Positions 6,001 to 9,000 of a stretch of 18,733 nt of DNA are shown one piece after another. A program made the position numbers. Origin of the DNA: a virus (taxonomy: Duplodnaviria; Heunggongvirae; Uroviricota; Caudoviricetes); IMG/VR virus record IMGVR_UViG_2690316269_000016, positions 1 to 18,733 of that record; one strand, given 5' to 3'. The number at the start of each line of letters is the position of its first letter. The first letter of the stretch is position 1.

Positions 6001-9000
6001 GTTTGGGTTTAATGCTTTGAGGTAACGCTGTGTTCCATCTTCTATCAACCGCTTAAAGGTGGTTTCGCCTGTATCGTGCATCAATGCAATAACGTCGTCA
6101 CCGTGGCAGGCAGGGACTTCAGGATCTACAAAAATCATGTCTCCCGGGCGGTACTCATCAATCATTGAATCACCAATCACCCGCAAGATATAAGTCATTT
6201 CGCCACAGGGTACAGGGCAGGGATAAGTTTCTGCTGTGCTCAAATCAACCTCAGAATAGCCAACTTCTTTCCATGCTCCGGCCTGTACCCATGATATGAC
6301 AGGGACTAACGTTATTTGTTTGTTAGTAATTGAAACATCAGGTTTTTTTGTGATGTTTGTTGTCTGGTGTTCTTGATCAAGCCATCCGACAGGCAGGTCG
6401 AAACATTTTTCGATGTGCCGTGCCATGCTGTCACCGATATTTTTAGTAGCACCATCTCCCATAAACCTGCTGGTCTGGGTTGGCTCGCGATCAATCATGG
6501 TGGCAAAGGAAGAATTCCCGCCAACACCATCTCTCAGTTTTCTGGCGTTAGACCGCCGGATGTCATGGACTGTTTTCATAACGAAATTAAAACCTTTGTA
6601 CCGATAGGGTACAAGTATCTTGAAGGTTCATCTCAATCATGTAATATGTATATCGGAGGTACATATTGTATGAAAGCGTATTGGGACTCTTTAACCAAAG
6701 AACAGCAGGGCGAGTTGGCCGGAAAAGTTGGCTCAACACCAGGCTACTTACGGCTGGTTTTCAATGGTTATAAAAAAGCCAGTTTTGTGCTGGCTAAAAA
6801 ACTTGAGCAATGCACGTCAGGTGCAATTACGAAATCTGACTTAAGACCGGATATCTATCCGAAAGATTAACAGAACACCTTCAATTTTTAACCACAGAAC
6901 GATGAGGCTAACCGTGGGTAAGCATCACTGGAAAGTAGAAAAACAGCCTGAGTGGTACGTGAAAGCTGTCAGAAAAACTATCGCGGCGTTGCCGGGGGGT
7001 TACGCTGAAGCTGCTGAGTGGCTGGATGTAACAGAGAACGCTTTATTCAACCGCCTTCGTGCAGATGGCGATCAGATTTTCCCGCTGGGATGGGCAATGA
7101 TTTTACAGCGCGCGGCTGGCACTCACTACATTGCGGATGCTGTCGCACAGTCTGCTGGTGGGGTGTTTGTATCGCTTCCTGAAATTGAGGAAGTAGAGAA
7201 CGCCGATATAAACCAGCGCCTGCTGGAAGTCATCGAACAGATCGGGAGTTACTCAAAGCAGATTCGTTCGGCAATCGAAGATGGGGTAGTGGAGCCACAC
7301 GAGCAGACAGCAATTAATGATGAGTTGTATCTGTCAATTTCGAAGCTCCAGGAGCATGCAGCACTGGTCTACAAAATCTTTTGCGCTCCAGAAAAGAGTG
7401 ACGCCCGCGAGTGTGCAGCTCCGGGCGTCGTGGCGTTTTGTGTCTGTGGAGAAACTAACGCATGAACAGTTTAACGGCAAATAACCGTTTGTCGCAACAG
7501 CTGGTGGCCAGCGTCGCTGAACACCTGTTGTTACGGCATGAATGCAGATTACCAAATCACCTGGCTGTAAGTAACCACAGAGAACTTTACCTGACTGTGG
7601 GGGGCGAGTTGTGCAGGAACTTAACCGCTGGTTTCGTGACGGAAGAGGGCTTTATGTCCATGTTATTCGTTGGGAGCCAGAAACACAGCGCGTTATCTAT
7701 CTTCGCAAAGACTACCCGCATGAGTGCTTTAGTCCTTTGTGGAAATTCAGGCGTGATTTTGTTGAGTGTGAAGGACCACCAGCACATTGATTCTGCCATT
7801 CCGGGACGTTACACTGTTCAGACACCTTATAAAGCGGGTGTCGGGATTGGCGTCCTGGAATTGCATACGGCGACAATTGGCGCGTTAGCGTCTTTTTTGT
7901 TGCTACAACTCAGCTATACCCAAATTATGGTGGGCTGGGTGGGGGCACCGAAAGGTGCGCCGGTTTCCGTATGCGCCGGTTACGCCAACCCTGCTCAGTT
8001 CACCACCAGCGAAATTGGCGTTTCCGGTGGTGGAAGTTATCCATTGCATACGGAGGCTGCCATCATGGCTACTGTCCCAGCCCTCTCTCGTCTGAATGAT
8101 GAAGACTTACATAAACTCAGTTATGTAACAACTGCACTACGTGCTCTGCGCAAGGTAACTCTTTCGGATCCGCAGGCGCATCAAGTTCTGGTAGAAACCC
8201 TTCTTAACTTGCAGGCTGAACGTATTCGTCTGGCGGATAAGGCTAATTTTCATATTCACCGTCTCCTGAATATCAGCGGAGGGCATCGTCATGCTTAATC
8301 CGTTGATCCTCAATATTTGCCGTTTTCTTCAGCGTAAAAAAACATCAATTCCTACAGTTGGGCAGTGGTACACCACACCTGCAGGGCATGTTCTACGTGT
8401 TAGCCTGGTTGACCGTGAATGCCAGAAGGTGATTTGTGAACCGCTGGGCCGTAATTACCGCGTCAGTATGCCGCTTATAGCCTTTCGCTCCGGAAAAAAC
8501 ATGAAGCATCTCGGAGGTGCAGCATGAGTATGGAGCTGATGGTTAAAGCGATGAAAATTCGAGTAGGTAATCCATTGCGAAAACTGGTTCTGATCAAGCT
8601 GGCTGATAATGCCAGCGATCAGGGTGAGTGCTGGCCCAGCTACCAGCATATTGCTGACCAGTGCGAAATTAGCAAACGTTCTGTGATGAATCATATTGCG
8701 GCCCTTTGTGAGTCCGGGCTGGTAAAAAAAGTCACCCGGAAAGGTGAAAAAGGTAACTCAAGTAATATCTATCTCCTTCATCTGGATGGTGCAGGAGATT
8801 CACTAGGGGGTAGTGCAAATAATTCACTATCTGGTGCAGCAAATTCACCAGGTAGTGCAGGAGTTGCACCAGGGGGTAGTGCAGGAGATTCACCCAGAAC
8901 CAGTCACTCTTTTGAACCAGTCAAAGAACCAGTCAATGAACCAATAGCTGTTGGTGCATCAGTTGATGAGTCCGTGCGAGTTCGTTCAAACCGACCGGAA

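What the first reader, a model, noticed from the sequence alone, without database searches (positions are those of the whole stretch)
8788..8934. Iteron-like direct repeats embedded in the O-like initiator gene (candidate ori)
Inside the linker-coding part of the replication protein gene the DNA has repeated 12-15-bp units (GTGCAGGAGATTCAC twice, GGGGGTAGTGCA twice, ATTCAC four times, then three GAACCAGTCA-type repeats). Lambda-type origins lie within O as iterons bound by the O N-terminal domain. The low-complexity Gly/Ser/Ala protein linker here looks like a by-product of these DNA repeats.
Basis: partly seen in the sequence, partly recalled or inferred. Interest (0 to 1): 0.4.

Follow-up and report, generated by a model that had tools for sequence, protein, structure and literature searches.

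The report
Replication origin inside phage initiator gene
The repeats are real and look like a prophage replication origin sitting inside the gene of the protein that probably binds it, the arrangement known from phage lambda but built on an unrelated DNA-binding domain; this rests on sequence comparison, not experiment.

Summary
Observation confirmed. Gene 8524-9342 (+, 272 aa) encodes a winged-helix HTH_36 domain, a disordered linker and a helical C-domain. The linker-coding DNA holds five 15-bp dyad repeats, GTGCA-N5-T(G/T)CAC, at 8789, 8813, 8834, 8855 and 8879 (0.17 matches expected by chance). Then come three exact GAACCAGTCA copies (8897, 8914, 8926) and a partial fourth.

Comparison with about 170 related loci supports selection on the DNA, not the peptide:
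- Every relative has 3-7 dyad repeats at 21-24 bp spacing in the same place.
- The encoded peptides differ completely between lineages.
- Some iterons sit in two codon phases within one gene.
- Half-site sequence tracks recognition-helix residues (for example N56 with GTGCA, R56 with GTGAC).
- Near-identical phages differ by whole repeat units.

The GAAYCAGTCA pair is almost invariant, synonymous sites included, across gammaproteobacterial phages. It is read in two frames, starts 3 nt after the last iteron and coincides with the local duplex-stability minimum.

Best reading: a lambda-type origin in its initiator gene, with a conserved repeat block where lambda has an AT-rich tract. The protein shows no detectable homology to lambda O, and no helicase-loader gene follows. 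Origin activity is untested. This is a new member of a known kind, of moderate interest.

The parts
8524..9342 (+). Initiator gene (272 aa): HTH_36 winged-helix N-domain, disordered linker, helical C-domain
   Evidence: ORF list and translation. Pfam HTH_36, E 1.8e-11, 44 bits against a cutoff of 25. PHROG 270 'replication initiation protein', E 2.8e-87. 99% identical to the replication protein genes of phages mEp460, SfV (orf39) and Stx2c phages.
8524..8787 (+). Coding part of the winged-helix DNA-binding domain (aa 1-88; predicted recognition helix aa 51-64, wing aa 67-85)
   Evidence: AlphaFold2 pLDDT is 73-93 over aa 1-90, with the helix and strand layout of a winged helix. Foldseek matches winged-helix proteins, including the DnaD N-domain 2v79 and Orc1/Cdc6 2qby.
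8789..8803 (.). Iteron 1, GTGCAGGAGATTCAC
8813..8827 (.). Iteron 2, GTGCAAATAATTCAC
8834..8848 (.). Iteron 3, GTGCAGCAAATTCAC
8855..8869 (.). Iteron 4, GTGCAGGAGTTGCAC (perfect 5-N5-5 dyad). This is the unit duplicated in the 6- and 7-iteron variants.
   Evidence: matches on both strands; L064, L071, L086.
8879..8893 (.). Iteron 5, GTGCAGGAGATTCAC. It ends 3 nt before the conserved block.
   Evidence: The 3-nt gap is fixed in 61 of 62 loci.
8894..8942 (.). Conserved block CCAGAACCAGTCACTCTTTTGAACCAGTCAAAGAACCAGTCAATGAACC. GAACCAGTCA copies lie at 8897-8906 (codon phase 2, read as R-T-S-H), 8914-8923 and 8926-8935 (phase 1, read as E-P-V); a partial GAACC lies at 8938-8942. Candidate unwinding or loading element.
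   Evidence: Exact repeats. Same-amino-acid codons are 87-100% identical here against 29-43% in the N-domain. The two copies have the same conservation profile in two frames across 88 loci. The family-wide duplex-stability minimum falls here. The 12-bp unit varies in copy number from 2 to 5.
8995..9339 (+). Coding part of the C-terminal helical domain, an exchangeable module that presumably recruits the replisome or helicase
   Evidence: AlphaFold2 helices at aa 162-229. PHROG hits 'DnaD-like helicase loader', 'primosomal protein' and 'replication protein' over aa 135-272. There is no Pfam or NCBIfam hit. At least 12 C-domain clusters combine with at least 6 iteron classes.

Best explanation
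Window 8789-8942 is most likely the replication origin of this lambdoid prophage, nested in the linker-coding part of its own initiator gene.

Proposed mechanism, all inferred:
- Dimers of the N-terminal winged-helix (HTH_36) domain bind the five 15-bp dyad iterons GTGCA-N5-T(G/T)CAC.
- The iterons sit about two helical turns apart, so the bound dimers would lie on roughly one face of the DNA and form an O-some-like complex.
- This complex destabilises the adjacent conserved block, which starts 3 nt after the last iteron. The block consists of GAAYCAGTCA direct repeats at 17 and 12 bp spacing and is the local minimum of duplex stability.
- The exchangeable C-terminal domain then brings in the helicase. 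It would have to be the host helicase, because no loader or helicase gene lies in the window's early region.

Shown by sequence comparison: the repeats are under DNA-level constraint, co-vary with recognition-helix residues, vary by whole units, and travel with the N-domain as one module.

Not shown: actual binding, unwinding and origin firing.
For: 1. Statistics. The window has 6 matches to the iteron pattern against 0.17 expected. Perfect 5-N5-5 dyads occur at 18.6 per kb in the linkers of 89 non-redundant relatives, against 1.8 per kb in the rest of the same genes.

2. DNA-level rather than peptide-level repeats. Lineages encode unrelated linker peptides but keep a dyad of the same geometry. 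In 62 loci of the GTG[CA]A class the spacing is 21, 22, 23 or 24 bp, so 40 of 280 iterons fall in a different codon phase.

3. Specificity covariation.
- K/R-R-S-V-x-N/S helices go with GTG[CA]A half-sites.
- R56 goes with GTGAC in five loci whose N-domains are 80% to 32% identical to the window (L138, L143, L003, L012, L006).
- R52T/S53T/V54A goes with GTGTA.
- SRSTVKS goes with GGGCA.
- KSAV and DRSTVRK go with other half-sites.
- L143 differs from the window in the first two turns of the helix only by N56R.

4. Whole-unit copy-number polymorphism among phages with identical N-domains: 5, 6 or 7 iterons, and 2-5 copies of the 12-bp unit. Published work reports 4 against 6 iterons in lambda and Stx phages (PMC7466680).

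5. Conserved block.
- Synonymous codons are 87-100% identical, against 29-43% in the N-domain.
- The two copies have identical conservation profiles in different reading frames. The only tolerated change, C/T at motif position 4, gives T to I in copy 1 and P to S in copy 2.
- The distance to the last iteron is fixed.
- The mean least-stable 30-bp window over 88 loci starts 12 nt into the block. In 37 of 88 loci this is the minimum within +/-330 bp, where about 8 would be expected by chance.

6. Anatomy parallel to lambda ori. Lambda's iterons lie at O codons about 117-145, spaced 20, 24 and 23 bp, directly after the DNA-binding domain.

7. Modularity. The N-domain, iterons and block combine with at least 12 unrelated C-domains, with the junction right after the block.

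8. Two initiators with an unrelated N-terminal half but the window's C-domain also carry mid-gene iterons followed by 12-bp-period tandem repeats.
Against: - There is no experiment of any kind, and no paper in the searchable library describes an origin for this family.
- No AT-rich tract lies next to the iterons. GC is 43-50%. The stability dip is modest, and a second dip lies about 150 bp upstream.
- No DnaA box is nearby.
- The covariation and conservation counts are not phylogenetically independent.
- The within-population SNP test for protected half-sites is only marginal (6/50 against 21/77 sites, p = 0.047) and is contaminated by indel variants.
- The role of the GAAYCAGTCA block is inferred from position and stability only. 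A variant, GAATCTATCA, tracks one C-domain cluster rather than the N-domain, and the model does not explain this.
Confidence: 0.7

Rival explanations
1. The dyad repeats are binding sites for the N-domain, but they act in autoregulation, as a transcriptional roadblock, or in handcuffing and incompatibility control. The real origin lies elsewhere in the phage.
For: Iterons in plasmids also serve copy control and autorepression (established knowledge). The covariation with the recognition helix shows co-evolution of protein and site, not origin firing. No AT-rich tract or DnaA box is adjacent.
Against: The gene is the only replication-type gene between cI and Q. No other copy of the iteron occurs in the 18.7-kb window. 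The iterons are locked at a fixed 3-nt distance to a conserved, low-stability repeat block. The anatomy matches lambda ori, where these elements are the origin.
Confidence: 0.12
2. The conserved GAAYCAGTCA block is not an unwinding or loading element. It is conserved for another reason. It could be a homologous-recombination junction for swapping N- and C-modules. It could encode a short linear peptide motif (PRTSHSFEPVxEP) that binds a host protein. Or it could be an mRNA-level signal.
For: The block lies exactly at the junction where C-domains are exchanged. The peptide is conserved too. The variant GAATCTATCA is shared by 3 of 4 members of one C-domain cluster with three different N-domain classes.
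Against: A peptide motif does not explain near-invariant synonymous sites. It also does not explain the same 10-mer being kept in two reading frames with the same position-specific tolerance. A recombination junction alone does not explain the internal direct repeats, the 12-bp unit polymorphism or the fixed 3-nt distance to the last iteron. No significant single-strand fold was found (z = -0.7). A -1 frameshift idea fails because the T-run is not conserved.
Confidence: 0.25
3. The repeats are only slippage-generated low-complexity linker coding sequence with no function at DNA level.
For: The linker is predicted disordered, and whole-unit copy-number changes occur, as expected for slippage.
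Against: Dyad symmetry is 10-fold enriched. Iterons occur in two codon phases. The same geometry goes with unrelated peptides. Half-sites co-vary with the recognition helix. The DNA is conserved in an Aeromonas phage despite divergent synonymous sites elsewhere.
Confidence: 0.04

Closest known systems
Phage lambda ori inside gene O (and the lambdoid and Stx-phage variants)
   Same: The origin is nested in the middle of the initiator gene, directly after the N-terminal DNA-binding domain. It has 4-6 dyad-symmetric iterons spaced 20-24 bp apart. Iteron number differs between related phages and changes protein length (PMC7466680). Iteron specificity is tied to the N-terminal half, and the C-terminal half is exchangeable (for lambda this is from my own knowledge of lambdoid hybrid O proteins).
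   Different: The protein has no detectable homology to lambda O, and its domain is HTH_36. Iterons are 15-bp 5-N5-5 dyads rather than 18-19 bp. There is no AT-rich tract; instead there is a near-invariant GAAYCAGTCA direct-repeat block at about 45% GC. No P-like loader gene follows; the next genes are PerC-like and Dam.
Replisome-organiser or DnaD-like phage initiators with an origin in their own gene (for example Bacillus phage SPP1 G38P with oriL, lactococcal phage rep genes); recalled from my own knowledge, not tested here
   Same: A winged-helix N-domain binds repeats that lie inside its own gene, and a C-domain recruits the helicase loader or helicase. The window protein gives a weak DnaD_N Pfam hit (24.4 bits, cutoff 27) and a fold match to the DnaD N-domain. 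PHROG labels for the C-domain include 'DnaD-like helicase loader'.
   Different: The sequence-level match is below threshold. The hosts are gammaproteobacteria, which have no DnaD/DnaB(Bsu)/DnaI pathway. No neighbouring loader gene is present.
Iteron plasmid origins (RK2 oriV, F, R6K, pPS10) with repeated 13-mers in the unwinding element
   Same: An array of initiator-binding repeats at about 22 bp spacing sits next to a short array of 12-13-bp direct repeats where the duplex opens (PMC4980987 appeared as a review of these origins, but I did not read it; the details are from my own knowledge).
   Different: The initiator is not a Rep_3 (WH1-WH2) protein. The iterons are dyads bound presumably by dimers. 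No DnaA boxes are present. The origin is inside a coding sequence.
'Eru' replication-region types of Stx phages (Llarena 2021, PMC8044961; the 2022 BMC Genomics follow-up, PMC8951638)
   Same: The same phage group. HTH_36 proteins are reported next to cI in Eru5, 6, 8, 11 and 13, and the window's gene is 99% identical to that of Stx2c phages.
   Different: Those papers classify gene content only. 'Iteron' and 'origin of replication' occur 0 times in both.

Membership tests
Lambda-type origin nested in the initiator gene | Several initiator-binding repeats with internal dyad symmetry, about two helical turns apart, inside the initiator gene just after the DNA-binding domain | tested here: met
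   Five 5-N5-5 dyads spaced 24, 21, 21 and 24 bp at codons 89-124. The same holds in 62 loci with spacing 21-24 bp. Lambda for comparison.
Lambda-type origin nested in the initiator gene | Repeat sequence co-varies with the N-terminal DNA-binding domain (origin specificity) | tested here: met
   At least six recognition-helix classes each have their own half-site. The minimal differences are N56R for GTGAC and R52T/S53T/V54A for GTGTA. The counts are not phylogenetically independent.
Lambda-type origin nested in the initiator gene | AT-rich unwinding tract next to the iterons | tested here: inconclusive
   No AT-rich tract; GC is 43-50%. The conserved block is nevertheless the mean least-stable 30-bp window in 88 loci.
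Lambda-type origin nested in the initiator gene | Initiator homologous to lambda O (Pfam Phage_rep_O) | tested here: not met
   No Phage_rep_O hit at E <= 0.01. hhalign of the N-domain profile against lambda O gives probability 4%.
Lambda-type origin nested in the initiator gene | Adjacent helicase-loader gene (P-like) or helicase gene | tested here: not met
   The downstream genes are PerC-like, Dam methylase, RusA, a KilA-N-type regulator, an HNH/DUF968 protein and Q. Some relatives do have a DnaB-like or primase-helicase gene next door.
Lambda-type origin nested in the initiator gene | Initiator-dependent origin activity of the fragment | not testable with these tools
   Needs an origin-test plasmid, footprinting or marker-frequency analysis.
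HTH_36 (PF13730) winged-helix proteins | Pfam HTH_36 match above the gathering score | tested here: met
   44.1 bits against a cutoff of 25, aa 17-67. The winged-helix fold is predicted with pLDDT 73-93 over aa 1-90.
DnaD-like / replisome-organiser initiators | DnaD_N and DnaD/DnaB_2 C-domain matches | tested here: inconclusive
   DnaD_N scores 24.4 bits, below the cutoff of 27. The C-domain has no Pfam or NCBIfam match. Only PHROG labels and a weak fold match to 2v79 point this way.
Iteron-plasmid origin (Rep_3 type) | Rep_3 initiator, DnaA boxes, direct (non-dyad) iterons | tested here: not met
   No Rep_3 hit. There is no DnaA box within about 1 kb of the array, and the window's count is at chance level. 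The repeats are dyads.

The most novel reading that the evidence does not exclude
The near-invariant GAAYCAGTCA direct-repeat block is a previously undescribed, sequence-specific origin element. It would be shared by phages of many gammaproteobacterial genera, whatever their iteron specificity and whichever C-domain or helicase partner they use. It would replace the generic AT-rich tract and be recognised in duplex or single-stranded form by a conserved factor. That factor could be a host replisome component or an invariant surface of the initiator. On this reading the block is a universal 'loading pad' kept in two reading frames inside a gene. In addition, the recognition-helix and half-site pairs (N56/GTGCA, R56/GTGAC, T52-T53-A54/GTGTA) would form a simple, re-programmable origin-specificity code.
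Probability: 0.3. Interest if true: 0.6.

Novelty: new member of a known kind. Interest (0 to 1): 0.4.

Why it matters
This initiator type is common in E. coli, Shigella and Salmonella prophages, including Stx2c-converting phages. Published 'Eru' classifications of their replication regions list the genes but no origin.

Placing the origin gives three things:
- a concrete target for studying or blocking induction-dependent phage replication, and hence toxin gene dosage;
- a predicted specificity code for the winged helix and its iterons that can be tested with point mutants;
- a clean example of DNA-level selection shaping a protein linker, with the same motif conserved in two reading frames.

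It also warns annotators that the conserved peptide motif 'PRTSHSFEPVxEP' and the low-complexity repeats in HTH_36 proteins probably reflect DNA function.

Tried and rejected
- Homology to lambda O: none found.
- PDB sequence search with the whole protein: only chance-level hits.
- Pfam and NCBIfam on the C-domain: nothing.
- DnaA boxes: none near the array, and the window's count is at chance level.
- Promoter or terminator inside the array: none.
- Single-strand hairpin or cruciform explanation: fold energy is not different from shuffles, z = -0.7.
- AT-rich tract next to the iterons: absent.
- A programmed -1 frameshift at TCTTTTGA, which would truncate the protein after the linker: rejected, because the T-run varies (TCTTCT, TCTCTT, TCTTTA) in relatives.
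- IHF-site match in the conserved block: checked by eye, does not fit the consensus.
- SNP depletion in half-sites among 78 near-identical loci: only marginal (p = 0.047) and confounded by indel variants, so it is not used as evidence.
- My first dyad-enrichment run was wrong, because runs of N matched themselves. It was corrected.
- Literature searches for an origin or iterons in SfV, mEp460, YfdO or HTH_36 initiators found nothing specific. The library lacks many subscription papers (for example Weigel and Seitz 2006, or the SfV genome paper), so prior description cannot be excluded.
- The pIGMS31 plasmid paper describes a 'conserved region plus four iterons' origin, but for an unrelated Rep protein.
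Full report
**1. What is there**

ORF 8524-9342 (+) encodes a 272-aa protein.
- Pfam places an HTH_36 domain at aa 17-67 (E 1.8e-11, above the cutoff), with a sub-threshold DnaD_N hit.
- PHROGs calls the protein a replication initiation protein (phrog_270, E 2.8e-87). It splits into an N-terminal 'initiation O-like' part (aa 1-140) and a C-terminal 'replication protein / DnaD-like helicase loader' part (aa 135-272).
- The surrounding genes are a lambdoid early region: an S24 repressor, a cro-like gene, a cII-like gene, an Ash/Rha-type regulator and a small ORF. After the initiator come a PerC-like gene, Dam methylase, RusA, a KilA-N-type regulator, an HNH/DUF968 protein, Q, a methyltransferase, an endolysin and terminase.
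- The segment is 98-99% identical to phages mEp460, SfV (orf39 'replication protein'), Ayreon and a series of Stx2c-converting phages.

**2. The observation**

The strings resolve into two arrays.

Array A is five units of GTGCA-N5-T(G/T)CAC at 8789, 8813, 8834, 8855 and 8879.
- Spacing is 24, 21, 21 and 24 bp.
- The fourth unit is a perfect 5-N5-5 palindrome.
- The pattern occurs nowhere else in the 18.7-kb window. Shuffles give 0.17 matches expected, and 0 of 200 shuffles reach the observed 6.

Array B is GAACCAGTCA at 8897, 8914 and 8926, plus GAACC at 8938.

Tandem Repeats Finder sees periods of 21, 24 and 12.

Both arrays lie in codons 89-140. An AlphaFold2 model built on 30 homologues gives:
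- a confident winged helix for aa 1-88 (recognition helix 51-64, beta wing 67-85);
- pLDDT below 50 for aa 91-157;
- a four-helix C-domain at aa 162-229.

Foldseek finds only generic winged-helix relatives, among them the DnaD N-domain and the Orc1/Cdc6 winged helix.

**3. Are the repeats selected as DNA or as peptide?**

I collected three sets of related loci:
- 14 divergent phage loci;
- 80 IMG/VR loci with a 99-100% identical N-domain;
- 80 loci from genomes of other gammaproteobacteria, with N-domains 66-86% identical.

Every relative has repeats in the same place, but the encoded peptides are unrelated: GAGDS, PVPPKST, VTESH, GGAGAAR and PSDKMS. The DNA unit is in almost every lineage a dyad at 21-24 bp spacing, usually of 5-N5-5 form.

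- Perfect 5-N5-5 dyads occur at 18.6 per kb in the linkers of 89 non-redundant genes, against 1.8 per kb in the rest of those genes.
- In the 62 loci of the GTG[CA]A class there are 3-7 iterons. Spacing is 21 (71 cases), 22 (30), 23 (36) or 24 bp (69). The same unit is therefore read in a second codon phase in 40 of 280 cases.
- Aeromonas phage AsXd-1 keeps all five iterons at the same spacing. Only 38% of same-amino-acid codons in its N-domain are identical to the window's.

**4. Link to the DNA-binding domain**

Half-site sequence tracks the predicted recognition helix.

| Recognition helix | Half-site |
|---|---|
| S-[KR]-R-S-V-x-[N/S...]-H | GTG[CA]A |
| Arg at position 56 | GTGAC-N5-GTCAC |
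| R-T-T-A-I-N-H | GTGTA-N5-TACAC |
| S-R-S-T-V-K-S-H | GGGCA-N5-TGCCC |
| K-S-A-V-[KR] | its own site |
| D-R-S-T-V-R-K | its own site |

- The Arg56 class appears in five loci whose N-domains are 80% to 32% identical to the window (L138, L143, Vibrio D67, mEp013, Vibrio D171).
- Against the nearest GTG[CA]A-class relative, the GTGAC class differs in the first turns of the helix essentially by N56R. The GTGTA class differs by R52T/S53T/V54A.
- This is what one expects if the winged helix reads the half-sites.
- The counts are not phylogenetically independent, so I treat this as strong circumstantial evidence, not proof.

**5. Copy-number polymorphism**

Among phages with identical N-domains there are 5, 6 or 7 iterons. 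The 21-bp unit that carries the palindromic iteron is the one duplicated. The 12-bp GAACCAGTCAAW unit occurs 2, 3, 4 or 5 times, giving proteins of 268 to 286 aa. Protein clusters in the large database range from 242 to 302 aa. Published work on lambda and Stx phages describes the same thing: 4 against 6 iterons, which adds 13 residues to O (PMC7466680).

**6. The conserved block**

Downstream of the variable iterons, the sequence CC-AGAAYCAGTCAC-N6-GAAYCAGTCA-NN-GAACC is nearly invariant. It is found in phages and prophages of Escherichia, Salmonella, Klebsiella, Pectobacterium, Aeromonas, Vibrio, Shewanella, Pseudomonas, Marinomonas, Xenorhabdus and others.

- Same-amino-acid codons are 87-100% identical to the window in this 36-nt stretch, against 29-43% in the N-domain.
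- Copy 1 is read as R-T-S-H and copy 2 as E-P-V. In motif coordinates, both copies show the same conservation profile over 88 loci.
- The only tolerated change is C/T at motif position 4. It gives T to I in copy 1 and P to S in copy 2.
- Spacing from copy 1 to copy 2 is 17 nt in 83 of 88 loci, and from copy 2 to copy 3 it is 12 nt in 78 of 88.
- The last iteron ends exactly 3 nt before the first copy in 61 of 62 loci.
- Some lineages change all copies together. Haemophilus has TAACCA in all copies, and some Shewanella loci have GAATCTATCA.
- More distant HTH_36 initiators have analogous 11-14-bp-period repeats after their iterons: PotUPM1 has GAACCNNNA four times in three frames, mEp013 has AACCAGTCA and AACCAGTAA, and D171 has TCCTAACA twice.
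- Averaged over 88 loci, the least stable 30-bp duplex window within +/-330 bp starts 12 nt into the block. In 37 of 88 loci it is the overall minimum, where chance would give about 8.

**7. Modularity**

The N-domain, iterons and block behave as one module. At least 12 unrelated C-domain clusters are joined to at least 6 iteron classes, always right after the block.

In the reverse case, two initiators share the window's C-domain but have unrelated N-terminal halves with no Pfam match. Each has its own mid-gene iterons followed by 12-bp-period tandem repeats: CAGAGAATACWA about four times in Stx2_14040 and ACAGATAAAGAT three times in phage Evi. The grammar 'iterons, then short repeats of about 12 bp, then exchangeable C-domain' therefore seems general.

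**8. Comparison with lambda**

- In lambda the four annotated iterons lie at O codons about 117-145, spaced 20, 24 and 23 bp, followed by an AT-rich tract (PMC7466680).
- The window has the same layout but differs in four ways.
  - The protein is not detectably homologous to O.
  - The repeats are 15-bp dyads.
  - There is no AT-rich tract.
  - There is no P-like gene, so the helicase must come from the host through the C-domain. That last step is inferred.
- No DnaA box is near, there is no internal promoter and no significant single-strand fold.

**9. Verdict**

My confidence by step:
- The dyads are binding sites of the gene's own winged helix: about 0.85.
- The region is the origin: about 0.7.
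- The GAAYCAGTCA block is the unwinding or loading element: about 0.4.

Rivals:
- The iterons serve only regulation.
- The block is a recombination junction, a peptide motif or an RNA signal.
- The repeats are pure slippage. This is essentially excluded.

An origin nested in an initiator gene has been textbook knowledge for lambdoid phages since the late 1970s, so the kind is known. I found no description of it for this HTH_36 initiator family in the searchable literature; the Eru papers never mention iterons. The library is incomplete, however.

Three aspects look new or at least unreported in what I could search:
- the near-invariant two-frame repeat block;
- the recognition-helix and half-site pairs;
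- the 'initiator-solo' gene layout.

Interest is moderate.

Noticed in passing
window 17518-18137: A 305-bp tandem duplication (2.0 copies, 98% identical) lies inside the small terminase subunit gene. It splits the gene into two ORFs, 17365-17865 and 17853-18173, and both match phrog_83. 305 is not a multiple of 3, so the duplication should disrupt terS. The prophage may be packaging-defective, or this may be an assembly artefact.
   Followed up: partly
window 5905-13787: 'Initiator-solo' early region. No helicase, primase or loader gene lies between the repressor (5905-6579) and Q (13035-13787). After the initiator come a PerC-like gene, Dam, a small LexA-family-like ORF, RusA, a KilA-N-type regulator and an HNH/DUF968 protein. 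Relatives with the same N-domain family do have a DnaB-like or primase-helicase gene next door (L004, L007, L009).
   Followed up: partly
L151, L158, L173 (Shewanella), conserved block: The variant GAATCTATCA / GAACCTATCA replaces GAACCAGTCA in 3 of the 4 loci that share C-domain cluster 4, although these loci have three different recognition-helix and iteron classes. This hints that the block may co-evolve with the C-domain or its partner. The main model does not explain it.
   Followed up: partly
L177 1340-1495 (Stx2a phage Stx2_14040) and L178 897-1239 (phage Evi): Both initiators have the window's C-domain but unrelated N-terminal halves with no Pfam match. Each carries its own mid-gene repeats followed by 12-bp-period tandem repeats: AAACCCAATTTCG three times then CAGAGAATACWA about four times in L177, and GTCACG-N4-GTCACG then ACAGATAAAGAT three times in L178.
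   Followed up: partly
L007, L008, L009, L149, L160, L173: The subfamily with helix K-S-A-V / K-S-T-V has a 3-residue insertion in the wing in L007-L009 (GVNNGKGN). Its repeats fit TGTGC-N9-GCACA rather than 5-N5-5, and the spacer-9 dyad class is also about 10-fold enriched in linkers. This suggests a different half-site spacing linked to the longer wing.
   Followed up: no
L176 (NZ_CP148393.1) and other PLSDB records of 33-54 kb: Circular records deposited as non-mobilizable 'plasmids' in E. coli, Salmonella, Klebsiella, Microbulbifer, Shewanella and Pasteurella match the repeat region. The one I inspected, the 44.6-kb E. coli record, carries an early region like the window's, with the repeat segment 100% identical, and PLSDB lists no replicon type for it. 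These records look like phage genomes captured as episomes.
   Followed up: partly
L004 vs L011 vs L010 (Stx2a_F403, Stx2_EH2085, Klebsiella phiKp_30): The GGGCA-GGAGC-TG(C/A)CC iteron class has an 18-bp period. It occurs 3 times in F403 and 7 times in EH2085, and the phiKp_30 record ends inside the array. This is another case of iteron copy-number variation in Stx phages.
   Followed up: no
window 9339-9342: The initiator stop codon overlaps the start of the PerC-like ORF (GTGATCATGA), which suggests translational coupling of the two genes.
   Followed up: no
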